IMG/VR virus record: IMGVR_UViG_2529292920_000018
Location: 1-64,000 of that record
Reading direction: 5' to 3' (one strand)
DNA: 64,000 bases
Source of the DNA: a virus
Taxonomy: Duplodnaviria; Heunggongvirae; Uroviricota; Caudoviricetes
Below the pieces are notes generated by a model. It worked only from the letters and a program-made list of their open reading frames with translations. It was not told where the DNA came from and ran no database searches. The stretch's first letter is position 1. Every line of letters starts with the position of its first letter. Made by a program: the position numbers and the translations under genes. This document shows positions 1 to 44,097 of this stretch, piece by piece.

Positions 1-495
1 AAAGACGAAAACGTTGGTTTAGGAGAAGGCTCTGCACTGCCCGTTGGTGTGCCCGTTCCGTGGCCCTTAGCAACACCACCAACGGGCTGGCTGAAATGTA
101 ACGGTGCAGCATTTTCTTCTGAAATGTACCCCAATCTGGCAAAAGCCTACCCCACCAATAAATTACCGGATTTACGGGGCGAATTTATTCGTGGCTGGGA
201 TGATGGGCGAGGAATTGATGCGGCACGCGCTTTATTGAGCATTCAAAACGGGATGTTGGAAAAACATCGCCATATTGTTGTAGCTAACGATGGATATGAC
301 ACAAAAGATGAATGGGAGTTGGCTACGATTTTCAAAAAAACATATACACAAGGCAGGGGGCTTGATGCCACAAATACAGGAGGGAGTTTGATTCCATCAC
401 CAACGCTTCATTCACGAGGAAGTATTGGTAACACAGGTGGTAGTGAAACCCGCCCCCGCAATATTGCATTTAACTATATCGTGAGGGCGGCTTAG
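1..495 (+). CDS. Alternative tail-fibre C-terminal (receptor-binding) segment, silent in this orientation
   Basis: Open frame from position 1; first ~85 aa near-identical to the C-terminal part of the fibre at 1111-2562 then divergent; ends ETRPRNIAFNYIVRAA. Confidence 0.6.
   Translation, partial: KDENVGLGEGSALPVGVPVPWPLATPPTGWLKCNGAAFSSEMYPNLAKAYPTNKLPDLRGEFIRGWDDGRGIDAARALLSIQNGMLEKHRHIVVANDGYDTKDEWELATIFKKTYTQGRGLDATNTGGSLIPSPTLHSRGSIGNTGGSETRPRNIAFNYIVRAA
4..29. other. Din-family (gix/pix-like) invertase crossover site, left boundary of invertible tail-fibre segment
   Basis: gacgaaaacgttggtttaggagaagg; inverted copy of the site at 1559-1584; lies at the constant/variable junction (LGLGE) of the fibre. 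Confidence 0.5.
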
Positions 496-501
496 TTATA
501 T

Positions 502-1111
502 TCAACTGGCTGATGCCAGTGGTATTTCCGGCAAGTTGATATCTGGTGCCATGTTTATATCCATTGCGTTCAGCGCGTCTATATAATCCAGCACGGCATT
601 AAGCCGGGTGGTTTCTGCCTGCGTCAACTTCCGCCCGGCCCGCAACTTCAACTGAATCAGACTTATGGAATCCATTGCCGCATCAGCCAGTGACTGGCGC
701 TTGGTTTCTGCCGCTTCTACTGCGGCACGATGTTGTACCTCAGTATCTGTCACCCATTTTTCACCATCCCATTTATCGTATGGTGTTAACGGGGCGATAG
801 TGGTTGTATTTTCGGGTAGTCACCCAGCGCCGTGATTTCTTCGGTGTTTCCCGTGTCAGTGCTATAGACGGTTTCACCACGATGGTCTGGCGCATACTCC
901 CATGAATTTAAATCCTCCGAACGGCGAATAGCATAGCCAGATTTATGTGCGCCTGGGGCATCTAAACAGGAATTAGCCGGAATACCAACACCCACAGCAA
1001 GATATTCAGTTGATTCGGAAATATATTCCCGTGTCTCACCATCATAGTTATAAACGACGATGTTTCCTGCCTGTACGGCATAAGGTCATCATTTAATATC
1101 GCGTTATTCAT
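502..1111 (-). pseudogene. Tail fibre assembly protein (TfaE-like), disrupted by two frameshifts
   Basis: Homology to the intact Tfa at 43090-43683 is split over three reading frames (ORFs 786-995 and 502-753 plus an 11-codon N-terminal stub overlapping the fibre stop). Confidence 0.55.
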
Positions 1112-2562
1112 TATGCGGTTCTCACAATATAATTGAAGGCAATATTGCGTGGGCGGTTTTCATTCCCATCTGAGGATTCCGTTCTGTATTGACTGGTAAA
1201 TCTACCGTTAATTGCACCTTGCCGGACGGCATTATCTGTCGACAACAGACTATCCCCTCTTTTGTCATTTGGCACCAGTACCGTGTTATCCCACGCATCC
1301 CATGACCGAATATTATGATAATGACTTCCTGTTAACCACCCCTGCATGCTTAAGATGCCCCTTCCGGCATCCACCCCGCGCCCATCATCCCAGCCACGGA
1401 TAAACTCACCGCGTAAATCAGGTAATTTTAACGTTGGGTAAACCTTTGCCAGATTTGGGTACATTTCAGAAGAAAATGCTGCACCGTTACATTTCAGCCA
1501 GCCCGTTGGTGGTGTGGCTGAGGGCCATGGAACAGGCACACCAACGGGCAGTGCAGAGCCTTCCCCCAAACCAAGGTAATTGAGGACTTCTTTTATACTG
1601 CCCATAGCGATAATAGCGCGACCAATAGCTGTAAGGGTTGTCAGTGCTGCGCGGTCTGCTCCGGTAAAATAAGGCAACCGATCTGCTGCAGTGGCAAGTC
1701 CTGCCAGAGCAGTGAGCGTGGCATCTGCCGGTTGTTTTCCGTTTGCCAGATCGTATGCAGCCTTGACCGCTTTCGGTGTGGCGGCCAGTATTTCAGACGT
1801 GCTGTTGATGTCACTGCTCAATTGTACGGTGCCTTTTGCCGTCAGCGAGGCAGCAGGCACTCCCGTTATCTGACTCCACGGGTGAGTGTGGCTGACGGGC
1901 GCCTTGCCGGCTGCAAGGTCGTATGCAGCCTTGACCGCCTTCGGCGTGGCAGCCTCAGTTTCTGATTGACTGTCCGTGGCGCTGCTCAGTTGTACGGTGC
2001 CTTTTGCCGTCAGCGAGGCAGCAGGGACTCCCGTTATCTGACTCCACGGGTGAGTGTGGCTGACGGGCGCCTTGCCGGCTGCAAGGTCGTATGCAGCCTT
2101 GACCGCCTTCGGCGTGGCAGCCTCAGTTTCTGATTGACTGTCCGTGGCGCTGCTCAGTTGTACGGTGCCTTTTGCCGTCAGCGAGGCAGCAGGCACTCCC
2201 GTTATCTGACTCCACGGGTGAGTATGGCTGACGGGGGCCTTGCCGGCAGCCAGGTCATATGCAGCCTTGACGGCCTTTGGTGTGGCGGCCAGCGTTTCAG
2301 AGGTGCTGTTGGTGGCACTGCTCAGTTGGGTGAACCCCTTAGCTGTCAGTGTCGCGTCCGGGTGGTTACGGGAACGTACGTGTTCAGCCAGTGACTGTGC
2401 GGCTTCCTCCGTTTTTTTCTTCAGCCATTTCGTCCTGTTTGCCAGTTGCCGGGGGGCTCGATTTGATATCCCGTCTGCACCACCCAGAACCGGATCTGAT
2501 GTCTCCAGTTGATAGATATTTTCTTCCCACTTTTCTGTTTCATTCAGGTTTCCCATAATCAA
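1111..2562 (-). CDS. Tail fibre protein (Mu S / P2 H-like) with invertible C-terminus
   Basis: 483 aa; 56-aa tandem repeats of the phage tail-fibre repeat type; C-terminus ends NRPRNIAFNYIVRTA. Confidence 0.85.
   Translation of the reverse strand: MIMGNLNETEKWEENIYQLETSDPVLGGADGISNRAPRQLANRTKWLKKKTEEAAQSLAEHVRSRNHPDATLTAKGFTQLSSATNSTSETLAATPKAVKAAYDLAAGKAPVSHTHPWSQITGVPAASLTAKGTVQLSSATDSQSETEAATPKAVKAAYDLAAGKAPVSHTHPWSQITGVPAASLTAKGTVQLSSATDSQSETEAATPKAVKAAYDLAAGKAPVSHTHPWSQITGVPAASLTAKGTVQLSSDINSTSEILAATPKAVKAAYDLANGKQPADATLTALAGLATAADRLPYFTGADRAALTTLTAIGRAIIAMGSIKEVLNYLGLGEGSALPVGVPVPWPSATPPTGWLKCNGAAFSSEMYPNLAKVYPTLKLPDLRGEFIRGWDDGRGVDAGRGILSMQGWLTGSHYHNIRSWDAWDNTVLVPNDKRGDSLLSTDNAVRQGAINGRFTSQYRTESSDGNENRPRNIAFNYIVRTA
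1559..1584. other. Din-family invertase crossover site, right boundary of invertible segment
   Basis: ccttcccccaaaccaaggtaattgag; reverse complement shares core ttggtttgggggaagg with site 4-29. Confidence 0.5.
1700..2350. repeat. 168-bp tandem repeat, about 3.5 copies, inside tail fibre gene
   Basis: Motif tcccgttatctgactccacggg recurs at 1861, 2029 and 2197; encodes the 56-aa unit AKGTVQLSSATDSQSETEAATPKAVKAAYDLAAGKAPVSHTHPWSQITGVPAASLT. Confidence 0.8.
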
Positions 2563-3137
2563 CTGCTCCCGTGGTTATAACTGCCATCATGGATGGCGGT
2601 ATTGTTATAGCGAATGGCCACAGACTGATACTCCAGGCTGGCCAGATGGCAGCGGGCCGGTGCAAATGCAGCCAGCGTCTGACGCAGCATCGCGGCCTGA
2701 TCGTTAGTAATGGGCTGTTTCAGAATAACGCGATAAACTGCCCAGGCGGCTGCATCTCCATGAACAAACAGTCCGTTATAGCTGCGATTGCCGTCGTAAC
2801 TGAGACGACCTGTGCCTTCAATCAGATCCACTTCACCAAAGCCAAAACGGCGGATAACTTCCCGGATTGACCACGGCGTCCCTTTATACCGGTGCAGTTC
2901 GATGGCTGCTTTTATAAGCATGCGGCGAACATCGTCCGATTCCGCCAGCTCCCAGCCATCGCCAGACAGTGAGAACTGCTCGCCCAGCCATGGCAGCGCG
3001 GAACTGTCGACGATATCGACGAGAAAGACCATCAGTACGCTCAGGTCGATGTTATCCAGCCGTCCTGCCAGTCTTCCCAGCGTCCTGAGACTGATATCAC
3101 CCTCAAGCGGTGGCGGGAGTTGTAATGGCTCAGTCAT
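2559..3137 (-). CDS. Tail protein, P2 gpI-like (Mu gp48-like)
   Basis: 192 aa; resembles the gpI-like protein at 45279-45890; position between baseplate J and fibre. Confidence 0.65.
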   Translation of the reverse strand: MTEPLQLPPPLEGDISLRTLGRLAGRLDNIDLSVLMVFLVDIVDSSALPWLGEQFSLSGDGWELAESDDVRRMLIKAAIELHRYKGTPWSIREVIRRFGFGEVDLIEGTGRLSYDGNRSYNGLFVHGDAAAWAVYRVILKQPITNDQAAMLRQTLAAFAPARCHLASLEYQSVAIRYNNTAIHDGSYNHGSS

Positions 3138-4233
3138 CAGACACTCCAGTCATGTTAAGAGTGATTGCCGTACAGTTTGCCCATTCGTTTTCTGCCACCA
3201 CCCGCAGTGCCGGTGTCACCAGTTCAACCTGGTACACCCCGGAAACGGACAATGCACTGATAATCTGGCTGGGGACAATATCGCGCCCCAGCGTGGCGGC
3301 ACGTGATGCCACCCAGTTCTGTATGGCGCTGTTAGCGGCATCTTTTACAGACCTGGCATCCTGATCACGATAGATCGTAATCTTGGCTTCAATGGTGTAA
3401 TCCACCTTCACTGGTGTTTTAGCCCGCACTGTATCAGTGAGTGGCCTGACTTTCTCATCAGAGCAGAAACTCTCTACCAGCGTGAGAACACCGCCGTCCG
3501 GCAGACCGGTACTGAGCAGCGGATACAGATCTACGGTCCCGGGAACCGGGGAAAGCACAGCAACATCGACAATGTTGGGATGGGCCTGCATGGCATGAAA
3601 GCGGTATGCGCCACGGCTTCCGGCATTGGTGAATGACTCCGGGGCCAGCCTGATACGCTCCCGGAGCCTGTCATCGTCTTCCTGTTCTGAACCGCCGGAA
3701 CTGGCCGTCAGATTGCTCACCAGCAGGTCGACGTTATCAATCTCATCGAGTAACTGACTGACCTGCGCAGGTTGCCAGCCGTTACCAGCGGTACCGGGTT
3801 CGGTACAGGTGGACGTGACATTGACCAGCAGCAATCCGGCCTTCAGTACCACATCTGTATCGGTGGCAAAAATAACGCTGTCGGAAGCGCTGACGCGGGT
3901 GCCTGCCGGGATCAGCACATCAATGGCCAGTGCCTCATCTACGGAGAACTGGAGCGTGGTAGTGGCAGGCTGCGCGGCAAGACGGTATACACCGACCAGT
4001 TCACCGAGGTAATCAATCATCGGCTCACGGGCAAAGGCGACCAGATTCTGCTTTGCTGCCTCCTGTACCGCAACCCTGACCAGCATTTCGCGATAGGCCC
4101 ACAGATCAATCAGCAGACGTTCTGCCTGTGCCGGGTACAGCGTTTTGCCGGTATCCGCTTCATACTTCGCAATCATTTCTGCCGTGATTTTGTCGGCATC
4201 GCGTTCAATAAAATCGGGTTCTGTCAGCGCCAT
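3130..4233 (-). CDS. Baseplate J-like protein (Mu gp47-like)
   Basis: 367 aa; synteny and resemblance to the J-like protein at 45883-46791. Confidence 0.75.
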   Translation of the reverse strand: MALTEPDFIERDADKITAEMIAKYEADTGKTLYPAQAERLLIDLWAYREMLVRVAVQEAAKQNLVAFAREPMIDYLGELVGVYRLAAQPATTTLQFSVDEALAIDVLIPAGTRVSASDSVIFATDTDVVLKAGLLLVNVTSTCTEPGTAGNGWQPAQVSQLLDEIDNVDLLVSNLTASSGGSEQEDDDRLRERIRLAPESFTNAGSRGAYRFHAMQAHPNIVDVAVLSPVPGTVDLYPLLSTGLPDGGVLTLVESFCSDEKVRPLTDTVRAKTPVKVDYTIEAKITIYRDQDARSVKDAANSAIQNWVASRAATLGRDIVPSQIISALSVSGVYQVELVTPALRVVAENEWANCTAITLNMTGVSDD

Positions 4234-4571
4234 AGCAGCTCCTGAGTCCGGGTCTGTCCGTCTGAGCCTTTCCAGCTCACCCGGAGCGTAAGATGTTCGC
4301 CGTCGACGGCGGGTTTAACTGACATAAGCTGGCAGCGGGGCTCCCAGCGCCGGATGGCATCGACGGATTCGCGCACCACATGCGGAATGGCCCGGTCTAC
4401 AGGCCAGTCGATATAAAGATGCAGATTGCTGCCGAACTCCGGGCGATGCGGGTCGCTGCCGCGGGGAGTCCGCAGGATAATTTGAATCGCCTGCCGGATA
4501 TCATCCAGCCCCCGGACAATTTCGCCGGGAGCCTGCAGGGTCGGTTGCCAGAATACTGAGGTTGTTTTCAT
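4224..4571 (-). CDS. Baseplate protein, GPW/gp25-like (Mu gp46-like)
   Basis: 115 aa; pattern similar to the gpW-like protein at 46796-47143. Confidence 0.7.
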   Translation of the reverse strand: MKTTSVFWQPTLQAPGEIVRGLDDIRQAIQIILRTPRGSDPHRPEFGSNLHLYIDWPVDRAIPHVVRESVDAIRRWEPRCQLMSVKPAVDGEHLTLRVSWKGSDGQTRTQELLWR

Positions 4572-4625
4572 GGGGGCAGTATTGCCCCCGTGCGGGAACG
4601 CTGATATTAAAGGCGTTTAAAAAGC

Positions 4626-5222
4626 TCAGTGGGAGTGGTGGCTGGAGTTTTCGCCATCAGACAACATACTGCCCGTGGCATGGGCATTCCCTTTAATCTC
4701 GATATTGCCATGGATGGTCGCGGTAACACCTTCACCACCAGAACCCGCCATGCCTCCTTCGTAAATCAGCTTACCCCTGACACGCAGATCTCCGGTAAGT
4801 TCGGTTTCCGGTGCGTCAATCGTGGCTTTCTGTGTTTTCAATACCACATCAGCACCACACTCAATGACAATATGCTCAATGCCGCCCCGGATGGTCAGAG
4901 TGTGCGTCTTCCGGTTGTAGCTGTACTCTGCACCATCAGCAAACCGGGTTCCCCGGATATTTTTGTCACTGAACGGTGGTTTATCGACGTCTGAATACAC
5001 CGCGCCCAGAATAACACCATCCTCGCCGTTGGCATCGAGCAGTACCTCAACCTGCTCCCCCACGTCAGGGAGCCAGTAATCTTTGTTATCCTGGGTATTG
5101 CGCTGCAGCACGTTAAGCCAGTTTGTGCGCAGGTTATCGCATTCAGGCAGACGAACGCGGGCCTGAACCCTGTCGGCATCAACGGCACTGACCGTACCGA
5201 CCTGACGAGTGACACCAGTCAT
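4626..5222 (-). CDS. Baseplate assembly protein V-like (spike)
   Basis: 198 aa; synteny; resembles the V-like protein at 47140-47775. Confidence 0.7.
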   Translation of the reverse strand: MTGVTRQVGTVSAVDADRVQARVRLPECDNLRTNWLNVLQRNTQDNKDYWLPDVGEQVEVLLDANGEDGVILGAVYSDVDKPPFSDKNIRGTRFADGAEYSYNRKTHTLTIRGGIEHIVIECGADVVLKTQKATIDAPETELTGDLRVRGKLIYEGGMAGSGGEGVTATIHGNIEIKGNAHATGSMLSDGENSSHHSH

Positions 5223-6373
5223 TTTTTCTTCTCCTTAATCACCGTCGATGTACTGCCATCCGGGTGATAAACCGTGAGTTTCTGAGTTTTTTGTTTTTTC
5301 CCTCTTGTGACTGGCCCCCGTGCCACTTCCAGCTCTGTGGTGTAGCCGCTGTTACGGTCAAACGCATGGCGGGCAGTGGTTATGAGCCATGGCCCGGATA
5401 ACTGCCCAAAACCCACCAGTTCAATTTTGTTGCCTGCTGTCAGTTGAGGTGTTCCCGTCAGCGTCAGGGAGCCGTTCTGCTGGTATTCGTTATGTCTGGC
5501 CAGTGCTGAATCCGCTTTAATCCGGGCACTGTCCGGGTCGCTGACGCGGCTGTTAACTTTAAGTGAGTCAGCGCTGGTAACCTTACCACCTTTGAGCTTT
5601 TTGTCGCTTTCACGGGTACCACCATCAGCTTCGTAGACGATCAGTTTTTTACTGCTGCTTTTCTGGTGTTTTACCTTTGCAGATTTATAGACCCGGTTGA
5701 TGGTGTCACGCAGGGAAAAGCGGGCCACATCCTGCGGTTTTAACTGCCTGACCGGCTCCTGACTGCGCAGTGTGGCCAGATGAGAAAAAATCAGCTGGTC
5801 ACTGACCACTTTCACTGCATAACCATACTCGCTGGCCAGCCGGCGCAGAAAACCCACGTCGGTTTCAGCATACTGGGTCACCCGGTCGATTCTGATGGAC
5901 TCAATGCTGCCCACCAGTTTCAGTCGGTGCTTTCTGGCAATCCGCCCCGCAACAGCTGCCAGCGTGGTGTTCTCAAAACCACGACTGGTTTTAGTCCGCA
6001 GGGCACTGTTAACCGAGGTGGCCACCCCACGGATAGAAACAACGGAAGCGGGCGAACTCACTTCGATCTCGTCTATAGAGAACGTACCGCAGGACAGCAG
6101 CTTCTCGCCCTGATAGCCCATTTTCAGCGTCAGCGTGTCACCCTTGCCCGGATACCATTTATCCAGCCAGCGGCCATCGGTGTCGTCCAGCTCCACCTCA
6201 ATGGTATCGGACTCATTTTTGATGTTATCGCTCCAGGTCACACGGGTGACATAAGGCGCGATATCAGAGGTGATGTTTTTCTGCAGATACCACAAAGTGA
6301 ACACCGGTGTCAGCACATCGCTGACGCCGGTTAACGCTGATGTGACTTGCGCAGTGCTGTTTATCTCAGCCAT
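5219..6373 (-). CDS. Tail protein, gpD-like (Mu P / gp44-like)
   Basis: 384 aa; N-terminal 230 aa align by eye with the truncated D-like ORF at 35994-36698. Confidence 0.7.
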   Translation of the reverse strand: MAEINSTAQVTSALTGVSDVLTPVFTLWYLQKNITSDIAPYVTRVTWSDNIKNESDTIEVELDDTDGRWLDKWYPGKGDTLTLKMGYQGEKLLSCGTFSIDEIEVSSPASVVSIRGVATSVNSALRTKTSRGFENTTLAAVAGRIARKHRLKLVGSIESIRIDRVTQYAETDVGFLRRLASEYGYAVKVVSDQLIFSHLATLRSQEPVRQLKPQDVARFSLRDTINRVYKSAKVKHQKSSSKKLIVYEADGGTRESDKKLKGGKVTSADSLKVNSRVSDPDSARIKADSALARHNEYQQNGSLTLTGTPQLTAGNKIELVGFGQLSGPWLITTARHAFDRNSGYTTELEVARGPVTRGKKQKTQKLTVYHPDGSTSTVIKEKKK

Positions 6374-6576
6374 GGGGCAATATCCTCTTCTGTACGGGCT
6401 TCTTCAGCCTCAATCACCGGGATCAGTAACAACAGCCCGGAGGGCAGCACCGGCGTGATGGCCACGTGCGGATTGGCGGCAATAATCCGGGGATAGCCCA
6501 GCGGGTCACCGTAGTACTGCCATGCCAGCGAATCCCAGCGCTCTCCGTCACGGGTAACATGTTCAAGAAACATCAC
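6361..6576 (-). CDS. Tail protein X-like (LysM-like)
   Basis: 71 aa; motif WQYYGD...IIAANP resembles the P2 gpX-like protein at 50497-50700. Confidence 0.5.
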   Translation of the reverse strand: MMFLEHVTRDGERWDSLAWQYYGDPLGYPRIIAANPHVAITPVLPSGLLLLIPVIEAEEARTEEDIAPWLR

Positions 6577-7457
6577 ACACTCCTCGTCAGTATTCTGGCG
6601 GCCATTGCACTTAATCCCGGAGACATGCGGTTGAATGCTGTGCCGGCGGCGTTAAGCTGCCCGGAAACGGTATCCAGAGCACCTGCAATATTTCTTTTGT
6701 CCACACCACTCAGCGCAGACTGTGCCTGCTGTACATACGTGGCTGCTTCGCTGGCTGTTCTGGCCAGACTGATGGCATCGGGCATGGATTCAGAGAGTGC
6801 GTTAAACGCCGGAACACTTTTCCCCAGAGCCCCGGAGATATTACCCAGTCCGCTCATCAGCCCCGGCACACGGGTCAGTGCGACAACGGGGTTATCCTTC
6901 ATTTTCTGTGTCACCCGAACGGCGCTGATAGTGGTCTGGAGTACAGACTGCGCCTGTTTCGCATAGTTGACGCCGTTGCGGATGAACTGCGCCACCCCTG
7001 AAGGTGAAGGTATGGCACCGGAGACCGCCCCGACACCCGGGAGCTTCGTGCGTATTGCCGGTGGTTGCAGAGGATTTTTCGGGTCACCGGTGTATTCCCG
7101 GAGAGACACGGTGGCACTGACAGCCAGCACGTTGCCGGTACTGTCAGTCTGCTCGCTGGTTGCAGTCACATCGGTAATCACGAACCAGCCGCGATAGTCA
7201 CCGTTGCCGAAGACCAGCGCCAGTGCCTGATGGGCTTTCATGGCTGTTCGCAGTCTCGCCAGCTCCACATCGGGTACACAATAATGCTGATGGAAAACCA
7301 GAGTTATCTGGATTTCGTCCAGCCTGTCGCCGACGAACTGCAGGCCAGGCTTACCCCCGATGCGGGCATGCTCCGCATAATCGACGCCGAACGTGGCCTC
7401 GAAGCCGTCCCAGTAGGTAATCAGCTCAAACTCAATATCACCCAGTACGGCAAACAT
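6573..7457 (-). CDS. DNA circularisation protein N-like (gpU-like N-terminal domain)
   Basis: 294 aa; N-terminus resembles the gpU-like protein at 36698-37177; located after the tape measure. Confidence 0.6.
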   Translation of the reverse strand: MFAVLGDIEFELITYWDGFEATFGVDYAEHARIGGKPGLQFVGDRLDEIQITLVFHQHYCVPDVELARLRTAMKAHQALALVFGNGDYRGWFVITDVTATSEQTDSTGNVLAVSATVSLREYTGDPKNPLQPPAIRTKLPGVGAVSGAIPSPSGVAQFIRNGVNYAKQAQSVLQTTISAVRVTQKMKDNPVVALTRVPGLMSGLGNISGALGKSVPAFNALSESMPDAISLARTASEAATYVQQAQSALSGVDKRNIAGALDTVSGQLNAAGTAFNRMSPGLSAMAARILTRSV

Positions 7458-10408
7458 CAGCGGTACTCCTTACGTTGTTTCTGAGCCAGCAGACGCTCCA
7501 GCATTTTTTCCAGCTCATGCAGACTCATATTCAGGGCACCAGTCAGTCCTGCAGGCGCTGTGGTTTCCCTGCCATTGAGGAAAAACTGAGGATTAAAGCT
7601 GACCTGGATACCACCAGACGTTCCACCGCCGGTTGCAGCTGCACCACGGCCTGAATATCCGGCAGCCAGGATTTCAGGCGAGGGGATACGGGGAACATCC
7701 GGTGTCATCTCATTTGCCAGACGTTGCCCTGGTAAAATCGATGCCCGGGTGGAGAGCGGAATAGCGGGCATGGAAGACAAACTATTGATTACGGCTCCGA
7801 TCGCATTTTTAGCAGACGACATAAACCCATTGATATCGGGCAACGGCATACTGAAGCGAACACCTGAAGTGTTATCCCGTATTTCTGGCCCCTGGATGCT
7901 CACGGGCATTCTGGGGAGCAGTTCACTGGCCATTCGCTGCCCGGCCAGAGCTGCAAGCGGAGTGGTCCGCTGCAGGCCAATGGCGGCCCCCTGCGCGATA
8001 TTGTCACCAAAGCCCATAAACACGCGGCTCGGCGAATGAATGCCCAGCTTTTCGCTGAACCAGCCACTGATGCTGTCACCCATTCCGGTTACACTGGATT
8101 TGAGCGACTCCCATTTGTTTTTGATACCGTTAATCAGACCATCGACAAGATGGCCACCGAAGTCGGTAAACTTTGCCGGCAGATCAACACCAAGATATTT
8201 CAGCGCAGCTGCAAAGGCTTTATAGAGCAGACCTGCCGGCGACCAGTTAATCAGCAGCTTACCAGTTCCCGCGATACCGCCGTTAAAGGCTTCCTGAATG
8301 TCAGCCCAGCACTGTTTAAACCAGCTACTGATGCTGTCACCCATTCCGGTTACACTGGATTTGAGCGACCCCCATTTGTTTTTGATACCGTTAATCAGAC
8401 CGTCGATAAGATGGCCACCGAAGTCGGTGAACTTTGCCGGCAGAGCAACGCCGAAATATTTCAGCGCAGCCGCAAAGGCTTTATAGAGCAGGCCTGCCGG
8501 CGACCAGTTAATCAGTAACTTACCAATTCCCACAATGCCGCCGTTAAAGGCTTCCTGAATGTCTGCCCAGCGCTGTTTAAACCAGCCACTGACTGCCCCC
8601 CAGTTGCGGTAGATAAGGTAAGCTGCTGCCGCGACAGCGGTGATAACGAGACCGATGGGATTCATCATCAGCGCACGTCCAATCCAGAGAACAGCACGTC
8701 CGGCGAGCATAATTCCGCGAACCAGCCCCCCGGAGAGCACGCCACTCAGTGTTCTGGCTCCTCTGGCGACGGCGCTAAATCCGGTCACCAGCCAGCGGAG
8801 CTTACCGCCTTGCCCCAGTGCGAGCGACAGACGAAGCCAGTTGGCCCGAAGTAAAACAGCATTTTTCCAGACACTTACAAAGGGGGAAATAAGGAGATTC
8901 AGCCCCAGTTTGAGACCAACAGTCGCTATCTTAATCGCAAGGAGCGCACTGATGAGCTTAAAAGCCCCACTGACAAATTGCGGGTGAGTCGCTACCCAGT
9001 GTTTTGCCCCCTGAATGAGTGGAAGCAGTTCCTGAGTCAAAGAAATAAAAGATGGAGCTAATTGATCGCCCAGCGTAATTGCCAGATCGCGACTGCTGAC
9101 CATAAGTGTTTTAGTGGCTTCAAGGGGAGATTTCAGCCGCTGATCATAAGCACTGGCAAGCAAATCGTTATCCGCAGCCCTGAGAGCACCGGCACGGATC
9201 TCTCGATATCTGTCCATGTTGGCCAGCATCGGGCGGATAAATGCCATGACCTGCATATCCGCGAACATATCGCCCAGACCAAAGTTTTTCGCCAGAGCCT
9301 GAAGTGCCTCATCTCTTGCCGTATCATTCTTTATTTTCATGGCTGATTTGAAGCCGGCCAGCGCTTCGGGGCTTTTGGCATTGAGGTAACGTTCTATAAC
9401 ACTCAACATCCCTTCAATCGGAGAGATCCCCGCAGCTTTATAACTCGCAATAGATCCCTGCAAATCAATACCCAGATCAGCAAACTGTTTCTGAGTATCG
9501 CGGGCAAAAATTTTGGTAAGAAAGTTTTTAAAATTATTGGCTGCTTCGTCGGTGGAACCTGCACCGATTTTTGCTATCTGGAGACTGGCCCCTATTTCAG
9601 CAACAGCCTCTTTTCCACTGGCAATACCCGCCATCATTGGGGCCAGGGACTGCATCCACTTGACCTGATCCGGGATTTCAAATGACCCCTGGTCACCGGC
9701 ATAAGCCATAATATTCTGAACGGCACCAAAATCTCTGGCCGCACCTTTCAGGGAGTTTTGCCAGACTGCGGCCACTTTTGCCCAGTCCTGAGCAGACGTG
9801 CGTGTTGCCGTTGCCGCGCGGGCAATATCCGGCATCAGAAAACCGATATCTGACACATTATCAATATTGTCGCTGATGAGTGAACCCACCGCCTCCTGCA
9901 GCTCATCCTGATACTGATTGTATTTAAGCGCCCAGCCTTTTATCTGTCCGGCAAGTGCATCCCGCGTTTTATTGTCATATTTTGCGGTGATCGACATATC
10001 AATCATTTTGTCCTGAAAAGACATGGACTGCTGAACGGCAGGGGAAACCGTATGATAAACAGTCTGTGCCATGCCATACGCTTCAATCCCCTGACCATAC
10101 AGCGCCATGCGGTTAGCTTTCAGCGCATCACTGGTAGCGGATGCCGCTGACAGACGGCGCTGCTGGCGCTCAATTTGCTCCATGGTGCGGCTTACCCGCA
10201 GCAGCTCGCTGTTGAGATGCTGCATCCGGGAAGAACCCAGTTGACCATAACGTTCTGTTGCACGGGTTAAAGCGTTCTGACGTTCCTGCAGGCGGCGTGA
10301 GGTATCGCTCAGGGAATCAAGCGCACGGCGGGTACCGCTCATTGCAGAACGGAATGTGCTACCAATCATCCCGCCGATAACAACGCCGACTGAAAACTGT
10401 CCCGACAT
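7457..10408 (-). CDS. Tail tape measure protein
   Basis: 983 aa, helical Ala/Gly-rich protein between chaperone and baseplate genes; contains an internal 87-aa tandem duplication. Confidence 0.85.
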   Translation of the reverse strand: MSGQFSVGVVIGGMIGSTFRSAMSGTRRALDSLSDTSRRLQERQNALTRATERYGQLGSSRMQHLNSELLRVSRTMEQIERQQRRLSAASATSDALKANRMALYGQGIEAYGMAQTVYHTVSPAVQQSMSFQDKMIDMSITAKYDNKTRDALAGQIKGWALKYNQYQDELQEAVGSLISDNIDNVSDIGFLMPDIARAATATRTSAQDWAKVAAVWQNSLKGAARDFGAVQNIMAYAGDQGSFEIPDQVKWMQSLAPMMAGIASGKEAVAEIGASLQIAKIGAGSTDEAANNFKNFLTKIFARDTQKQFADLGIDLQGSIASYKAAGISPIEGMLSVIERYLNAKSPEALAGFKSAMKIKNDTARDEALQALAKNFGLGDMFADMQVMAFIRPMLANMDRYREIRAGALRAADNDLLASAYDQRLKSPLEATKTLMVSSRDLAITLGDQLAPSFISLTQELLPLIQGAKHWVATHPQFVSGAFKLISALLAIKIATVGLKLGLNLLISPFVSVWKNAVLLRANWLRLSLALGQGGKLRWLVTGFSAVARGARTLSGVLSGGLVRGIMLAGRAVLWIGRALMMNPIGLVITAVAAAAYLIYRNWGAVSGWFKQRWADIQEAFNGGIVGIGKLLINWSPAGLLYKAFAAALKYFGVALPAKFTDFGGHLIDGLINGIKNKWGSLKSSVTGMGDSISSWFKQCWADIQEAFNGGIAGTGKLLINWSPAGLLYKAFAAALKYLGVDLPAKFTDFGGHLVDGLINGIKNKWESLKSSVTGMGDSISGWFSEKLGIHSPSRVFMGFGDNIAQGAAIGLQRTTPLAALAGQRMASELLPRMPVSIQGPEIRDNTSGVRFSMPLPDINGFMSSAKNAIGAVINSLSSMPAIPLSTRASILPGQRLANEMTPDVPRIPSPEILAAGYSGRGAAATGGGTSGGIQVSFNPQFFLNGRETTAPAGLTGALNMSLHELEKMLERLLAQKQRKEYR
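8041..8590. repeat. 261-bp near-identical tandem duplication (2 copies plus about 20 bp) inside tape measure gene
   Basis: tttaaaccagc motif recurs at 8058, 8319 and 8579; protein shows FKQRWADIQEAFNGGI...DSISSW twice. Confidence 0.8.
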
Positions 10409-10483
10409 AGTGGTTAACCTCCGGGGAAGGTGAAAAGACGTGAGGGGATAACGCAGAACAGCCGCTACTGGCGGCTGTCTGTA

Positions 10484-10741
10484 CTATGATTTGTCGCCGT
10501 ACTCGCTTTTTATTTGCTCTTCAGCCTGCTCCAGCCACATCTCCAGATCGTCAGTATCGAGGGCATCAATCTCCCCCGGCTGAAACCGGAACCATCTCGC
10601 CAGCAGCCCCTGCGCCTGCGTCAGCGCCCTGGTTGCTCTCACCCATCCCCGTGATGAGCTGAAATCGTTTCTGTAACTGCAGGTAATCAGCCAGATCCAT
10701 ATTGTCGAGATCTTCCGGGAGAAGACCAGTACTGCGGGCAA
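10484..10741 (-). CDS. Tail assembly chaperone frameshift extension (GT-like), reached by recoding from 10566-10901
   Basis: ORF overlaps the chaperone 3' end in the +1 frame and extends 27 codons beyond its stop. Confidence 0.45.
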   Translation of the reverse strand: MPAVLVFSRKISTIWIWLITCSYRNDFSSSRGWVRATRALTQAQGLLARWFRFQPGEIDALDTDDLEMWLEQAEEQIKSEYGDKS

Positions 10742-10901
10742 TCAGCGGTTCGTCCCAGTCTGCCGGGTTTTTGCTGATTTTGCGCACCTGCTTCAGGTCT
10801 TTTACCGTCAGGCGTTTCAGTTCAACCAGCTCAATTCTGGTGCCTGCAGCAGTGGTGAAGGGATAAGACAATTTAAAAGTATCGGATGGGGTCTGTGACA
10901 T
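10566..10901 (-). CDS. Tail assembly chaperone (lambda G-like / Mu gp41-like), zero-frame product
   Basis: 111 aa acidic protein directly upstream of the tape measure; overlapping second ORF 10484-10741. Confidence 0.6.
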   Translation of the reverse strand: MSQTPSDTFKLSYPFTTAAGTRIELVELKRLTVKDLKQVRKISKNPADWDEPLIARSTGLLPEDLDNMDLADYLQLQKRFQLITGMGESNQGADAGAGAAGEMVPVSAGGD

Positions 10902-10998
10902 GATTGTGCTCCTGTGTAAGTTCAGGGCAGTATGTCGGGAGAAGCGCGTGACGGATATTAAAGGAGATTAAGAAGAAGGGGCCGGAGCCCCTGTGATG

Positions 10999-11280
10999 TC
11001 AGCAAGTGCGAAACCCCTTGCAGTTACGCAGGAAAGCGATGAGAAGCGTCTTTCCCTCAGATTTGCCGATGCCGGAGAACCAGTGGTCGGGAGGCTCCCA
11101 TGCTTCAATCAAATCCGCCAGTTTGCGGGCCTTTGAACGTGTGCAGTCAATCGGGTCATTGGTTTTACGGGTATTAAAAAGGGTTTCCACCCCCGGAATA
11201 TCAAGGAGGGTAAACCACGTACCATTTGACATGCCCAGTGCCGCACATCGTCCTCCTTTATCCGTCAGTTCAACACTCAC
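10999..11280 (-). CDS. Hypothetical protein (extra ORF between tube and chaperone)
   Basis: 93-aa ORF; start overlaps the tube gene stop; no recognised family. Confidence 0.4.
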   Translation of the reverse strand: MSVELTDKGGRCAALGMSNGTWFTLLDIPGVETLFNTRKTNDPIDCTRSKARKLADLIEAWEPPDHWFSGIGKSEGKTLLIAFLRNCKGFRTC

Positions 11281-11282
11281 CG

Positions 11283-11804
11283 TCAGCCCCCGATATTGAT
11301 ACGGTAGTCAGTCAGTTGATCAACACCGCCGACCCGGAAGATGTTGGCCAGATAGTCCAGTTGCAGCAGCTCTTCACCATCCAGTACCTGTCTGATATAC
11401 GTGCAGGTGAAGCTACTGGAGAACTCGGCGTTCTCGTGCTGTTTGAACGTCCCCAGCGGGTTCTTCTTGAACATAATCGTCAGGAAGGTGACCAGCGGGA
11501 TTTCGTCAATCAGCCCCTGCGAGCTGTAGCGCTGGACGCTGGAACGACACTGCAGTGCCAGCGACCTGTACGGGTTCGCGGCAGACAGCATCGCATCGCG
11601 GTAAAAGCTGTTCCATTTGATTTCGCCTTCCAGTTTGTCAAAACCAGCCGGGAGTTCCACCTTACCCACCATCCCCAGCGCCTTGTGTTCCTGCATAATC
11701 ATGGAGACATCGGGGAGTTTAACTTCCTCAGCCCGTCCCAGCAGGTTAGTACCATCCAGATAGATGTTGGCATTCGTGATGCGGTTTATCTCAATCTTTG
11801 ACAT
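11283..11804 (-). CDS. Tail tube protein
   Basis: 173 aa; follows sheath; resembles the tube protein at 40116-40634. Confidence 0.8.
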   Translation of the reverse strand: MSKIEINRITNANIYLDGTNLLGRAEEVKLPDVSMIMQEHKALGMVGKVELPAGFDKLEGEIKWNSFYRDAMLSAANPYRSLALQCRSSVQRYSSQGLIDEIPLVTFLTIMFKKNPLGTFKQHENAEFSSSFTCTYIRQVLDGEELLQLDYLANIFRVGGVDQLTDYRINIGG

Positions 11805-13231
11805 CAGTTGCCCCCTTTCAGGGTTAACAGGTATTCCGAGGTGATCTCAGTCTCAAACGTCAGTCGCTCCAGCGGCGGTGGTGGCGTATATTTGTAGCTC
11901 AGCAACAGGTGCCCGGCGGCCAGCTCCGTCTCCGGATTGCGGGCCGGATCAAACCAGCAACGGAAGCCCAGTACCGCACCATCACCAGTCATTTTGCGAC
12001 CGTAGGCGTTGACCGACTCCGTCAGTGCATCAATCAGCGCCTGAGTAATCGGCATGTCGATGTACTGCTGGCTGAAATAACGAATGGACTCGTTGATCAC
12101 ATCACCGGTGCGGCGAACGTTCTCAAAGTTACGCATATGGGTGACCGTTGGCCATGCTGCCGTCCGGTTACCCCACAGACGAAGGCCGCTGCCGTAACTG
12201 CTGAATACCGTGGTGATCCCCTGTTCGTTAAGCAGGTTCACCTCACTCTGCGGGTCATCAATCATCGCGGACAGCTGGCGCTCCACGCCGGTGATCCCCA
12301 GAATCTCCTGATTGGAGGATGACCACCAGTAGCCCTTGTCCAGATCGACTCTGGCACGCAGACCTGCTGCACGCTGGCTGAGCGGCTCCAGACGCTCTGT
12401 GTTTGTCACCGGGTCATATACCTTCACATGCGGATAGCACAGACGGACGCGGTCGGAGCTGGTATTGAAGTTGATGGTGCCTTCCGGGCCACGACCTGCC
12501 AGAGCCTGTGCAAAGGTGGTACCGACAGGCGCATCAATGTAGGTTACCGCGCCCAGCTTCTCTGCCATGGCGATAAGCTCAACTGCGACACTCTTCTGGG
12601 TGCAGAACACCGGCGCAATCAGAATTTTGGCGAAATAGCCGTACAGGTTGAAGCTGTCGTTAAGCAGCTTCATGCCGGTTCGGTTTCCGGCGCTGTTCAC
12701 CCCGCCGATGATGTCCGCCGCAGTCACCTTCGACGGGTCCGCGTACTCATAGCTCACCTTCACGCTGCCACCGGCCTCAATAGCCTTGCCCAGGTTCGTG
12801 AGCACACCCGCCTGCGCATCAACACGGTAGTCCGTGTTCGCCGTGTGGGTGGTGCTGCCTTCACTGTTTTTCACCACCACATTAGCGACAACCGGATGCG
12901 CCAGTCTGGCCTGCCCTGTCGATTTGTCAAAGGTAACCACCTCATCCTCGATCGCCGTTTTATGTTTCGCCGGGTCGAGGACGTTAATGACCAGAACGGT
13001 GCCTGCACCATGGTCATAAATCGCATCCAGCGCCTGCGGAATGGTAAAGCCGGTGAACTGGCTGCCAAATGCCGCTGCGTCTTTCTCAGACAGGCACTGT
13101 ACCAGCGTATTGACATCCCCCATCGGGGCGGTACCAATCAGGCCAATAACGGCAGATTTCACCGTTTTAACCGGGCGGGCTCCGTTTTCCACCTCAATGG
13201 TTTCGGGACCATGCAGATAGTTAGCTGCCAT
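11804..13231 (-). CDS. Tail sheath protein
   Basis: 475 aa; contractile-tail sheath position and size. Confidence 0.85.
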   Translation of the reverse strand: MAANYLHGPETIEVENGARPVKTVKSAVIGLIGTAPMGDVNTLVQCLSEKDAAAFGSQFTGFTIPQALDAIYDHGAGTVLVINVLDPAKHKTAIEDEVVTFDKSTGQARLAHPVVANVVVKNSEGSTTHTANTDYRVDAQAGVLTNLGKAIEAGGSVKVSYEYADPSKVTAADIIGGVNSAGNRTGMKLLNDSFNLYGYFAKILIAPVFCTQKSVAVELIAMAEKLGAVTYIDAPVGTTFAQALAGRGPEGTINFNTSSDRVRLCYPHVKVYDPVTNTERLEPLSQRAAGLRARVDLDKGYWWSSSNQEILGITGVERQLSAMIDDPQSEVNLLNEQGITTVFSSYGSGLRLWGNRTAAWPTVTHMRNFENVRRTGDVINESIRYFSQQYIDMPITQALIDALTESVNAYGRKMTGDGAVLGFRCWFDPARNPETELAAGHLLLSYKYTPPPPLERLTFETEITSEYLLTLKGGN

Positions 13232-35863: not shown

Positions 35864-36697
<834 letters not shown>

Positions 36698-36698
<1 letters not shown>

Positions 36699-41896: not shown

Positions 41897-42496
41897 CTAT
41901 TTGTCCCGGTTGGCTAAGGGATGACACAATTTATTCTTTGTCGCTGATGAGGGAAATTTTTTATAGAGCGTGGACAGGCCAATATCAAAAATCAGTGCCA
42001 CGCGTTGACGTGACTCCCCTGCAGCCAGCAAACGCCCGGCCTGCTCCCACTCACTCGCGGTGAGTTTCGGTCGTCTGCCACCAATACGACCTTTGGCTCT
42101 GGCCGCTTCCAGTCCGGCGCGTGTCCGCTCGACAATGAGTTCTCGCTCCATTTCAGCCAGGGCACCCATCACATGAAAGAAAAAACGCCCCATCGGTGTG
42201 CTGGTATCAATAGCATCCGTCAGGCTGCGAAAATTAACGCCGCGTTCGCGCAGTTCCTCAACCAGAATGACCAGATGCCGCATACTACGCCCCAGCCGGT
42301 CCAGCTTCCAGACCACCAGTGTATCCCCCTCCGATAATGTCCTGAGCAGTTTTTTCAGTCCCGGTCGGTCGGACTTCGTGCCGCTGATTTTATCCTCAAA
42401 AATCAGCTCACATCCTGCGCACTCCAGCGCGTTACGCTGCAATTCCGTATTCTGGTCATTTGTTGACACGCGTACATAGCCAATAAGCATGAGCAT
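41897..42496 (-). CDS. Serine DNA invertase (Gin/Pin/Hin/Cin family)
   Basis: N-terminal catalytic motif IGYVRVSTNDQ and C-terminal HTH; adjacent to the invertible fibre segment. Confidence 0.9.
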   Translation of the reverse strand: MLMLIGYVRVSTNDQNTELQRNALECAGCELIFEDKISGTKSDRPGLKKLLRTLSEGDTLVVWKLDRLGRSMRHLVILVEELRERGVNFRSLTDAIDTSTPMGRFFFHVMGALAEMERELIVERTRAGLEAARAKGRIGGRRPKLTASEWEQAGRLLAAGESRQRVALIFDIGLSTLYKKFPSSATKNKLCHPLANRDK

Positions 42497-42547
42497 CCCC
42501 CTGAATAAAAACCGGAGATGATGCCAGTTAGCCGTAATCTCTGCATT

Positions 42548-42573
42548 TTCTTAAACGTTGGTTTGGGAGAAGG
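42548..42573. other. Din-family invertase crossover site, left boundary of P2-type invertible segment
   Basis: ttcttaaacgttggtttgggagaagg; core is the inverted copy of the site at 44441-44468. Confidence 0.55.
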
Positions 42574-43090
42574 TGCTCCAGCTATTGGCGTTCCGTTCTT
42601 CTGGCCGTCCGCAGCAATGCCAGATACCGTAATCGATAGCTGGTCCAGCATGGTGTTTTTGAAGTTCAACGGCGCGAAATTCTCTGCCACTGATTACCCT
42701 GTGCTGGCGAAAGTGTTTCCGGCGCTGGCATTACCTGACGCACGCGGTGATTTCATTCGTATCTGGGATGACGGGCGCGGGATTGATGTCGGACGTACCC
42801 TACTTTCAGGGCAATCACACACAATTATGGATCATGCGCACAATATGGAATTGTGGACGGGGGACGGGCTTGCCGCAGGAAGTGCACGGGAAGGAGTAAA
42901 CCCAGGAATACTGGCTACATATGGTGACGGGGGAATAGTTAAAACGGACGAACCCGGTCTTAGGGTGCCTTCCTCACTACGAGCTCTTAGCTCTCGTAGT
43001 GTTAAACGTTATGGTGAAATTAGTGGAAATGTAGGTACAGAAACCCGTCCACGAAATATTGCATTTAACTTTCTGGTGAGGGCTAAATAA
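42553..43090 (+). CDS. Alternative tail-fibre C-terminal segment, silent in this orientation
   Basis: Begins at the LGLGE crossover; contains DDGRGID and ends ETRPRNIAFNFLVRAK, like the Mu-like fibre tips. Confidence 0.65.
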
Positions 43091-43683
43091 TGAAACCTGT
43101 TTTTGATGAAAATGGGCTGGCTACAGTACCGGGTAATATGCGTTGTTTTTATTATGATGCTGAAACATCTGAGTATACGGGCTGGTCTGATGAATATATT
43201 AATACTGGTGTAAGTATGCCCGACTGTTCCACTGGTATTGACCCTGGCGAATACATTCCGGGGAAAGTGGCAGTATTTACGGGTAAGGGATGGAGCCATG
43301 AAGAAGACCACCGCAATGAGACTGTTTACTCAATCGAAAATGGCGCAGCTGTTACAGTGGATTATATCGGTGCCATCAAAGACGGTTATGTCACGCTTTC
43401 ACCGTTAACGCCATACGATAAATGGGATGGTGAGAAATGGGTGACGGATACCGAGGCACAGCATAGCGCCGCACTAGACGCGGCAGAAGTAAAGCGCCAG
43501 TCGCTGATTGATGCTGCAATGGCTTCCATCAGTCTGATTCAACTGAAATTACAGGCCGGGCGGAAGCTGACGCAGCCAGAAAACACCCGACTTAACGCTG
43601 TGCTGGATTATATTGACGCGGTGACGGCAACAGATACCAGCACCGCACCGGATGTCATCTGGCCTGAACTGCCGGAGGCGTAG
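43090..43683 (+). CDS. Tail fibre assembly protein (TfaE-like), partner of the alternative fibre tip
   Basis: 197 aa; C-terminus TSTAPDVIWPELP. Confidence 0.8.
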   Translation: MKPVFDENGLATVPGNMRCFYYDAETSEYTGWSDEYINTGVSMPDCSTGIDPGEYIPGKVAVFTGKGWSHEEDHRNETVYSIENGAAVTVDYIGAIKDGYVTLSPLTPYDKWDGEKWVTDTEAQHSAALDAAEVKRQSLIDAAMASISLIQLKLQAGRKLTQPENTRLNAVLDYIDAVTATDTSTAPDVIWPELPEA

Positions 43684-44095: not shown

Positions 44096-44097
44096 TT

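What the first reader, a model, noticed from the sequence alone, without database searches (positions are those of the whole stretch)
1..1584. Mu-like invertible fibre segment is degenerate, with long internal inverted repeats
Sites at 4-29 and 1559-1584 bound a segment of only about 1.55 kb. Inside, about 250 bp adjoining each site are near-identical in inverted orientation (the first 85 codons of both tips match). The silent tip (1-495) has no cognate Tfa, and the single Tfa (502-1111) is frameshifted. The invertase for this segment must lie upstream of the window.
Basis: seen in the sequence. Interest (0 to 1): 0.45.

Follow-up and report, generated by a model that had tools for sequence, protein, structure and literature searches.

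The report
Phage tail-fibre tip-switching segment, chaperone gene broken
This is an ordinary, well-known kind of phage DNA switch that flips a segment to swap the tip of the tail fibre; it sits at the end of a Mu-like prophage in an E. coli draft genome, and its only oddity is two single-base deletions in the fibre-chaperone gene.

Summary
Two 26-bp crossover sites (window 2-27 and 1561-1586) bracket 1557 bp. They sit in inverted 235-nt repeats (85% identity). The segment holds an expressed fibre tip, one tfa gene and a silent tip.

The tfa gene carries two 1-nt deletions not seen in the eight intact relatives aligned. Repairing them restores a Tfa 100% identical to that of near-identical prophages.

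The reading "degenerate" is only partly right. One tfa serving several collar-type tips is the normal design of this module in every related Mu-like and P2-like E. coli prophage examined. These include the E2348/69 prophage that is very likely the locus where inversion was shown experimentally. A sequenced isomer (strain cS51a) has exactly the predicted flipped junction.

The sites match the Min sites of plasmid p15B at 23 of 26 positions. The silent tip is 95% identical to an e14-type StfE tip, and the tfa is TfaE-like.

The window begins 2 nt inside a draft contig (AIEZ01000020.1), so the invertase cannot be reached. In relatives a Gin-like invertase, usually preceded by one more silent tip, lies just upstream.

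Whether the frameshifts are real or an assembly artefact is unresolved. This is a new member of a known kind, of low interest.

The parts
2..27 (.). Crossover site B (26 bp, core TT at 14-15). Read on the other strand it is TTCTCCTAAACC AA CGTTTTCGTCTT.
   Evidence: It matches p15B mixMI''L' at 23 of 26 positions (site table from PMC3241671). Its inner half encodes GLGE, as does the site in the fibre gene.
16..495 (+). Silent tail-fibre tip cassette (Sv2', StfE type, 159 codons plus stop). It has no start codon of its own.
   Evidence: Pfam Collar E = 9e-15. It is 95% identical in protein to the e14-type tip of LP50-1. It fuses in frame to the constant part after a modelled inversion. It is found fused in this way in cS51a and GF66.2.
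502..1111 (-). Tail-fibre assembly (chaperone) gene tfa, TfaE type, 610 bp instead of 612. It is broken into three ORFs (962-1111, 786-995, 502-753).
   Evidence: Alignments to intact copies. The repaired product is 203 aa, 100% identical to the L005 Tfa, and matches Caudo_TAP. It is 77% identical to the TfaE of an e14-type segment.
809..812 (.). First 1-nt deletion: a T4 run where relatives have T5 or GTTTT.
1080..1080 (.). Second 1-nt deletion: a single A where all relatives have AA.
1111..1572 (-). Expressed tip (Sv1) of the tail-fibre gene. Its stop overlaps the tfa start (TAATG).
   Evidence: Collar domain.
1561..1586 (.). Crossover site A (26 bp, core AA at 1573-1574), inside the fibre gene at the boundary between constant and variable parts.
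   Evidence: It matches p15B mixQ''R' at 23 of 26 positions.
1111..2556 (-). Tail-fibre gene S (481 aa) with Phage_fiber_2 repeats and a Collar-domain tip.
   Evidence: Pfam. The exact protein is found on 10 public contigs.
11..245 (.). Left arm of the long inverted repeat (the conserved 5' part of the tips). Its partner is 1343-1577.
   Evidence: 235 nt at 85% complementarity. BLAST E = 2e-73.
1343..1577 (.). Right arm of the long inverted repeat.
434..494 (.). Left arm of the short inverted repeat (the conserved 3' end of the tips, encoding ...RPRNIAFNYIVR..). Its partner is 1112-1172. The two arms flank tfa.
1..221 (.). Stretch that is of P2-prophage type (CH4793 / GF66.2) rather than of the type of the otherwise identical Mu-like prophage. 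The mosaic junction lies between 190 and 221.
   Evidence: (difference lists).
41897..42496 (-). Intact Din-family invertase of the neighbouring P2-like prophage. It is not part of this segment but is a possible trans-acting enzyme.
   Evidence: Resolvase + HTH_7. It is 76% identical to the invertase of the Mu-like relatives. Its own sites share the inner half-site and the AA core.

Best explanation
Window 1-1586 is the fibre-proximal part of a Din-family (Gin / Pin / Min-type) tail-fibre tip switch at the invertase end of a Mu-like transposable prophage.

How it works. A serine invertase cuts at the 2-bp core of 26-bp sites. One site lies inside the fibre gene, where the constant shaft meets the variable tip. 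One lies in front of each promoterless tip cassette on the opposite strand. Inverting the DNA between two sites replaces the last ~153 codons of the fibre in frame, and so changes receptor specificity. This module carries one TfaE-type chaperone gene for several collar-type tips, which share conserved N- and C-terminal ends.

What is shown: the sites, the repeats, the in-frame fusion, the flipped isomer in another genome, the Gin-like invertase in relatives, and the two deletions in tfa.

What is inferred:
- The invertase, and probably one more cassette, lie beyond the contig end.
- The single Tfa serves all the tips.
- If the deletions are real, this prophage can still flip its tips but cannot make its own chaperone, so its fibres would be defective unless another prophage supplies a Tfa.
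For: Sites and frame: (23 of 26 matches to p15B mix sites; table from PMC3241671).

Repeats.

Domains: (Collar, Phage_fiber_2, Caudo_TAP, Resolvase + HTH_7).

Near-identical prophages. L005-L007 encode the same 481-aa fibre. They are identical to window 190-12555 apart from 0-2 substitutions and the two deletions. They carry an intact tfa, two silent tips and a 190-aa recombinase, at three different insertion sites. The recombinase matches Mu Gin at E = 2e-93.

Flipped isomer. The predicted junction is present at 98.5% identity over 740 nt in cS51a. There tfa and the former tip are turned round exactly as modelled.

Same architecture elsewhere. One tfa with several tips is found in FDAARGOS_1267 and in P2-like prophages of GF66.2, CH4793, E2348/69 and Res13.

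Experiment. The three-repeat, four-variant switch of E2348/69 is described in PMC4272514.

Selection. All 8 differences from L005-L007 in 1-189, and 5 of the 6 from CH4793 / E2348/69 in 222-348, are at third codon positions.

StfE / TfaE relationship.
Against: - The invertase and any further cassette cannot be seen for this genome. The contig starts 2 nt before the window.
- The first 8 contig bases (ATAAAGAC) match the invertase-proximal site context of P2-like prophages. They do not match the tip-to-tip junction of the closest Mu-like relatives. So this copy might have only one silent tip, or the contig start may be chimeric.
- In two of the four isomers of the three-site module, and always when the StfE-type tip is expressed, tfa lies antisense to the late operon. 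How the chaperone would then be made is unexplained. A consensus scan found no excess of promoter-like sites.
- Inversion was not demonstrated for this strain.
Confidence: 0.8

Rival explanations
1. One reading: a decayed two-site G-segment remnant. It would have lost the second chaperone gene and be losing the first, and would no longer be a working host-range switch.
For: - There are two frameshifts in the only tfa.
- Single-base indels are rare elsewhere in the prophage. None is seen in 12 kb against L007. At most two are seen in about 30 kb against FDAARGOS_1267, and one of those lies in a gene annotated as frameshifted in that genome. A random-error explanation is therefore unlikely.
- The contig's first 8 bases look like an invertase-proximal site, which would mean only one silent tip.
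Against: - The single-tfa layout is shared by all intact relatives and flips in nature and in the laboratory.
- The silent tip is intact, and its differences from relatives are almost all synonymous-position changes.
- tfa has no substitution at all relative to intact copies, so any decay is extremely recent.
- The sites are intact and Min-like.
Confidence: 0.3
2. The two frameshifts are assembly or sequencing artefacts of a 2012 draft genome. They would be confined to a repeated, invertible and possibly multi-copy module, and the switch would be fully intact.
For: - Both changes are losses of one base from a run of identical bases (T5 to T4, AA to A).
- The repaired gene is 100% identical to intact copies.
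- The contig breaks at the crossover site, and its first 189-221 nt come from a different (P2-type) copy of the module. This suggests the assembler mixed paralogous copies here.
- Two unrelated read-set assemblies of the same module (L010, L011) show other one-base losses in runs at 334, 356 and 757.
- No other public contig reproduces the double-frameshift allele.
Against: - The rest of the contig is clean: no other indel in 12.5 kb against L007.
- Loss from a 2-base run is not a typical homopolymer error.
- No mixed substitutions are seen inside tfa.
Confidence: 0.4
3. The start of the window records a real recombination between this Mu-like prophage and a P2-like prophage of the same cell. 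It would have occurred within the conserved 5' part of the tip cassettes, so that a P2-type invertase now flanks the segment.
For: - Window 1-221 is identical (apart from one base) to CH4793 / GF66.2 P2-type cassettes.
- Window 190-12555 is identical to the Mu-like L007.
- The shared interval is 190-221.
- The ATAAAGAC context is invertase-proximal in every P2-like prophage inspected.
Against: A path switch by the assembler within a shared stretch would give the same pattern. The contig ends immediately afterwards.
Confidence: 0.35

Closest known systems
Min multiple-inversion system of plasmid p15B (Din-family invertase Min, mix sites)
   Same: The 26-bp sites are nearly the same: 23 of 26 to mixQ''R' for the site in the fibre gene and 23 of 26 to mixMI''L' for the distal site, with an AA core. 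In relatives the tip cassettes lie in tandem and the stop codon of one overlaps the next site (CGTTTTCATGCG against the mix sequence CGTTTTTATGCC). Both switch fibre C-termini.
   Different: The element here is a chromosomal Mu-like transposable prophage, not a P1-related plasmid. Relatives have three sites rather than six. Only two sites are visible in this window, and the invertase is not visible.
Three-repeat, four-variant tail-fibre 'shufflon' of a P2-like prophage in EPEC E2348/69 (Goldberg et al. 2014, PMC4272514)
   Same: The module order is the same: invertase, two silent collar tips, one convergent tfa, fibre gene (L013). It is about 96% identical to window 7-1559. Inversion and coexistence of all variants were shown by sequencing and PCR.
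   Different: The host element is P2-like and the constant part of the fibre differs. Its tfa is intact.
G segment of phage Mu with Gin (and the C segment of P1 with Cin)
   Same: A Mu-type phage with the fibre gene split into constant and variable parts, 26-bp inverted sites, and a Gin-like invertase at the end of the genome (about 75% identity to Gin in relatives).
   Different: Mu has two tip-plus-chaperone pairs (Sv-U and Sv'-U') in a 3-kb segment, with short inverted repeats and a GA core. Here there is one chaperone, the inverted repeats are 235 nt of coding sequence, the core is AA, and relatives have more than two tips.
P segment of the e14 element with Pin (stfE-tfaE / stfP-tfaP)
   Same: The silent tip is 95% identical to the StfE-type tip, and the tfa is 77% identical to the TfaE that follows it in an e14-type segment.
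   Different: In e14 each tip has its own co-oriented tfa. Here the TfaE-type gene follows the other tip and converges on the StfE-type tip.

Membership tests
Din-family (Gin/Cin/Pin/Hin/Min) invertible tail-fibre segment | Two or more 26-bp imperfectly palindromic crossover sites in inverted orientation with identical 2-bp cores. | tested here: met
   Sites at 2-27 and 1561-1586, cores TT / AA (reverse complements). They match published mix sites at 23 of 26 positions and pix sites at 19-20 of 26.
Din-family (Gin/Cin/Pin/Hin/Min) invertible tail-fibre segment | The sites lie at the constant / variable boundary of the fibre ORF, so that inversion gives an in-frame alternative C-terminus. | tested here: met
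   The modelled inversion gives ...NYLGLGEGSALPVG... continuing into the silent tip as far as its stop. This junction exists in cS51a.
Din-family (Gin/Cin/Pin/Hin/Min) invertible tail-fibre segment | An adjacent serine invertase (resolvase catalytic domain plus HTH_7). | not testable with these tools
   The contig ends 2 nt upstream of the window. The invertase is present in all 7 Mu-like and 5 P2-like relatives inspected. It is Gin-like.
Din-family (Gin/Cin/Pin/Hin/Min) invertible tail-fibre segment | A Fis-dependent recombinational enhancer in cis. | not tested
   In known systems it lies in or near the invertase gene (established knowledge). That DNA is absent from the window.
Din-family (Gin/Cin/Pin/Hin/Min) invertible tail-fibre segment | Both orientations are actually observed. 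| tested here: met
   At population level, window / L005-type and cS51a-type isomers of the same prophage both exist. Experimentally, this was shown for the E2348/69 homologue (PMC4272514). It was not tested for this strain.
Mu G-segment architecture in the strict sense | Two tip-plus-chaperone gene pairs (Sv-U and U'-Sv') between two sites. | tested here: not met
   There is only one tfa (502-1111). No second Caudo_TAP ORF lies in 1-1586.
Multiple-inversion ('shufflon-like') fibre systems such as Min of p15B | More than two sites, with tandem promoterless 3' cassettes. | tested here: inconclusive
   Only two sites are visible in the window. The closest relatives have three sites, and some P2-like relatives have up to six or more cassettes.
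Caudo_TAP tail-fibre assembly proteins (TfaE type) | An intact ORF with Caudo_TAP_N and Caudo_TAP domains, co-transcribed after a fibre tip. | tested here: not met
   The domains are present, and the start overlaps the fibre stop (TAATG). However, the ORF is interrupted by two 1-nt deletions.

The most novel reading that the evidence does not exclude
This module family would run several receptor-binding tips on one generalist TfaE-type chaperone whose gene flips together with the cassettes. Whenever the StfE-type tip is expressed, the chaperone gene lies antisense to the late operon. That would require one of three things: expression of tfa that does not depend on its orientation, folding of some tips without a chaperone, or supply of Tfa from co-resident prophages. 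If the frameshifts are real, a strain with a broken tfa and a second prophage carrying TfaE-like genes (43090-43683) would be a natural test case.
Probability: 0.15. Interest if true: 0.4.

Novelty: new member of a known kind. Interest (0 to 1): 0.15.

Why it matters
It matters little beyond correct annotation. The locus is one more copy of a widespread and already characterised host-range switch of E. coli prophages.

It has three practical lessons:
- Short invertible fibre segments with a single chaperone gene should not be scored as decayed.
- Draft contigs tend to end exactly at such sites, so apparent truncation or mosaicism there needs read-level confirmation.
- The convergent position of the single tfa raises a small and testable question: how is the chaperone supplied in the flipped states?

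Tried and rejected
- An exact 41-nt search for the window start in one-genome-per-species contigs found nothing.
- A look-up of the 49-aa frameshift ORF found no record. The 83-aa and 69-aa ORFs did lead to the source contig.
- The idea that tfa alone might flip between the short 61-nt repeats that flank it, and so give the silent tip a co-oriented chaperone, was tested with a chimeric query. The only co-oriented cases were e14-type stfE-tfaE pairs at about 84% identity and an elongated fused fibre gene in SCU-101. No flipped-tfa isomer of this module turned up, so the idea was dropped.
- An internal promoter for tfa was sought. The consensus scan gave 2 promoter-like sites against 2.9 expected, so there is no support.
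- The frameshift shared with L010 / L011 proved false. Those contigs share the 83-aa ORF only because they have a different deletion at 757, and they are intact at 809-812 and 1080.
- The DECA genome paper, which would give the sequencing method, was not in the searchable library.
Full report
**What is in the sequence**

The minus strand of window 1111-2556 encodes a 481-aa tail fibre with Phage_fiber_2 repeats and a C-terminal Collar domain. It lies downstream of Mu / P2-type baseplate genes, in the order gpD-like, V, W, J, I.

- The fibre stop overlaps the start of a tfa gene (TAATG at 1109-1113) that runs down to 502.
- Six bases further on, a second Collar-domain tip ends on the plus strand, at 493-495. 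It is open from window base 1.
- The two tips begin with inverted copies of the same sequence: arms 11-245 and 1343-1577, 235 nt at 85%, BLAST E = 2e-73.
- They end with a second, shorter inverted repeat, 434-494 / 1112-1172.
- At protein level, 65 of the first 70 residues are identical, and the last 16 are again conserved (ENRPRNIAFNYIVRTA against ETRPRNIAFNYIVRAA).

**The crossover sites**

At the outer edge of each long repeat lies a 26-bp site. Site A is TTCCCCCAAACC AA GGTAATTGAGGA (1561-1586). Site B is the reverse complement of 2-27, TTCTCCTAAACC AA CGTTTTCGTCTT.

- Compared with the published table of Din-family sites (PMC3241671), the sites match p15B mixQ''R' and mixMI''L' at 23 of 26 positions each. 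They match pix sites at 19-20 of 26.
- A loose version of the core motif occurs only four times in the 64 kb. All four are fibre sites: these two, plus the two of a second prophage.
- Inverting 16-1572 in silico joins ...NYLGLGEG of the constant part in frame to the silent tip.

'Near-identical' and '85 codons match' are somewhat generous.

**The frameshifts**

Two E. coli genomes at 97-98% identity (HSP60, DLI.5a) have an intact 612-bp tfa, whereas the window has 610 bp.

- The exact fibre protein is encoded on 10 public contigs. Three of them (L005-L007) were read.
- From base 190 to 12555 the window differs from these only at 0-2 substitutions (none against L007) and by the loss of one T from a T5 run (809-812) and one A from AA (1080).
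- Restoring the two bases gives a 203-aa Caudo_TAP protein identical to theirs.
- All nine intact comparators have the extra bases.
- Elsewhere the assembly is clean. There is no other indel in 12.5 kb against L007. About 30 kb against FDAARGOS_1267 shows only two single-base indels, and one of those lies in a gene annotated as frameshifted in that genome.
- Two random errors falling in 610 bp would therefore be unlikely.
- On the other hand, two real indels in a gene with no substitution at all, in a prophage otherwise identical to intact copies, is also odd.

**Where the window comes from**

The frameshift ORFs led to the source: contig AIEZ01000020.1 of GCA_000249135.2, an E. coli DECA-collection draft.

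- The contig starts with AT followed by window base 1. The sequence therefore stops at the crossover site, as draft assemblies typically do at repeated or invertible DNA.
- The invertase cannot be reached by 'extending the window'.
- Window 1-221 is identical (one base aside) to the invertase-proximal cassette of P2-like prophages (CH4793, GF66.2). From 190 onward it is identical to the Mu-like L007, so there is a switch of ancestry within 190-221.
- The contig's first 8 bases (ATAAAGAC) are the context found next to the invertase in every P2-like prophage inspected. They are not the tip-to-tip junction of L005-L007.

This is either a real recombination between two prophages or a path switch by the assembler between paralogous copies. 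If it is the latter, it weakens trust in the nearby frameshifts. Two unrelated read-set assemblies of the same module show other one-base losses in runs. I put 'real' at slightly better than even.

**What the relatives show**

The prophage is Mu-like. It has a Mu-type portal, Mu Gam, a DDE transposase, an AAA ATPase and a Mor-family activator in relatives. Relatives lie at six different chromosomal positions.

- In all seven Mu-like relatives the order is: host DNA, 190-aa recombinase, silent tip, silent tip, one tfa, fibre gene.
- The recombinase has Resolvase + HTH_7 domains and matches Mu Gin structures 4m6f / 3uj3 at E = 2e-93.
- A single tfa for three tips is thus the standard design, not a remnant.
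- The same module, with one tfa and two to five or more extra tips, sits in P2-like prophages of GF66.2, CH4793, E2348/69 and Res13.

**Evidence that it flips**

A chimeric query modelling the A x B inversion product (silent tip joined to the constant part) matched strain cS51a over all 740 nt at 98.5%.

- There the annotation shows exactly the predicted isomer: recombinase, tip 3, the former expressed tip and tfa now on the other strand, and the fibre gene ending in the StfE-type tip.
- GF66.2 has this tip in the expression site of a P2-like fibre.
- For E2348/69, Goldberg et al. reported a P2-like prophage locus with three partly homologous inverted repeats and two overlapping inversions of about 2.2 and 1.8 kb. 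Four variants coexist in one culture and give three alternative C-termini (PMC4272514).
- The E2348/69 locus L013 has this architecture and is about 96% identical to window 7-1559, so it is very likely that locus.

**The 'missing' chaperone**

The silent tip is 95% identical to the StfE-type tip of an e14-like element. There it is followed directly by a co-oriented TfaE, and the window's Tfa is 77% identical to that TfaE.

- The single tfa is therefore of the kind that normally partners the silent tip. The shared N- and C-terminal ends of all these tips make one generalist chaperone plausible (inference).
- Substitutions in the silent tip fall almost only at third codon positions. This holds for all 8 differences from L005-L007 and for 5 of the 6 differences from CH4793 / E2348/69, so the cassette is under purifying selection.
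- What remains unexplained is orientation. tfa always converges on the StfE-type tip. Enumerating the four isomers of the three-site module shows that tfa is co-oriented with the fibre gene in only two of them (inference).
- A consensus scan gave no hint of an internal promoter.
- No isomer with tfa alone flipped was found.

**Comparison with known systems**

The locus works like Mu G / Gin, P1 C / Cin, e14 P / Pin and especially p15B Min.

- It is not a strict Mu G segment: there is one chaperone, the repeats are long and coding, the core is AA, and relatives have more than two tips.
- Its sites and its tandem-cassette layout are Min-like.
- Its experimentally studied twin is the E2348/69 module.
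- An intact Din-family invertase of the neighbouring P2-like prophage lies in the window (41897-42496, 76% identical). Its sites share the same inner half-site and core.
- Cross-action among Din invertases is established knowledge, so it could act in trans. Whether a cis enhancer would be available was not tested.

**Verdict**

The locus is a new member of a known kind and of low interest. The only strain-specific feature, the doubly frameshifted tfa, needs read-level confirmation.

Noticed in passing
window 41897-44468: A second, complete invertible tail-fibre segment in a P2-like prophage. It comprises an intact 199-aa invertase (41897-42496, minus strand) and two sites: 42546-42571 (25 of 26 to pixR) and 44443-44468 (23 of 26 to pixL). 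It also has two convergent, overlapping tfa genes (43090-43683 plus strand, 43655-44095 minus strand). The expressed tip is gp53-like. The silent tip's ending (RPRNIAFNFLVRAK) and its similarity to the tip-3 cassette of L005 look collar-type, but Pfam found no domain in it.
   Followed up: partly
window 35994-36698 and about 36025: Similarity to the Mu-like prophage of FDAARGOS_1267 ends at about 36025. This lies inside a 234-aa ORF that matches only positions 11-190 of the 305-position Phage_GPD profile. The Mu-like phage therefore appears to have transposed into the gpD gene of the neighbouring P2-like prophage. The missing part of gpD should lie beyond the invertase end, upstream of the window.
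   Followed up: partly
window 1-221: The ancestry of the sequence switches within 190-221. Bases 1-221 are of P2-prophage cassette type, and 190 onward is identical to Mu-like relatives. This is either real inter-prophage recombination or a chimeric contig start.
   Followed up: partly
window 1736-2362: The constant part of the fibre gene contains tandem 168-bp (56-codon) repeats with three overlapping 291-nt copies at 80-91% identity. Fibre length differs among otherwise near-identical prophages: 481 aa here, 537 in HSP60 and 543 in cS51a. In DLI.5a the gene is split. This is consistent with gain and loss of repeat units.
   Followed up: no
L015 3153-5141 (E. coli SCU-101): A P2-like fibre gene of 662 aa, about 130 aa longer than its relatives. 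It contains the variable part of the StfE-type tip about 380 bp upstream of the normal tip end and tfa. It looks like an in-frame fusion of two tip cassettes.
   Followed up: no
L010 and L011 (Logan assemblies ERR4859651, SRR15989561): These are short contigs of 1.3-1.4 kb that span only the unique interior of the same invertible module. They carry one-base losses in runs of identical bases at window-equivalent 334, 356 and 757. They show both that assemblies break at the inverted repeats and that such indels arise as artefacts in this module.
   Followed up: partly
L004 911-3994 (E. coli GF66.2): A P2-like prophage with five tandem silent tip cassettes followed by one tfa, all on one strand next to the invertase. 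It is a much larger cassette array of the same module.
   Followed up: no
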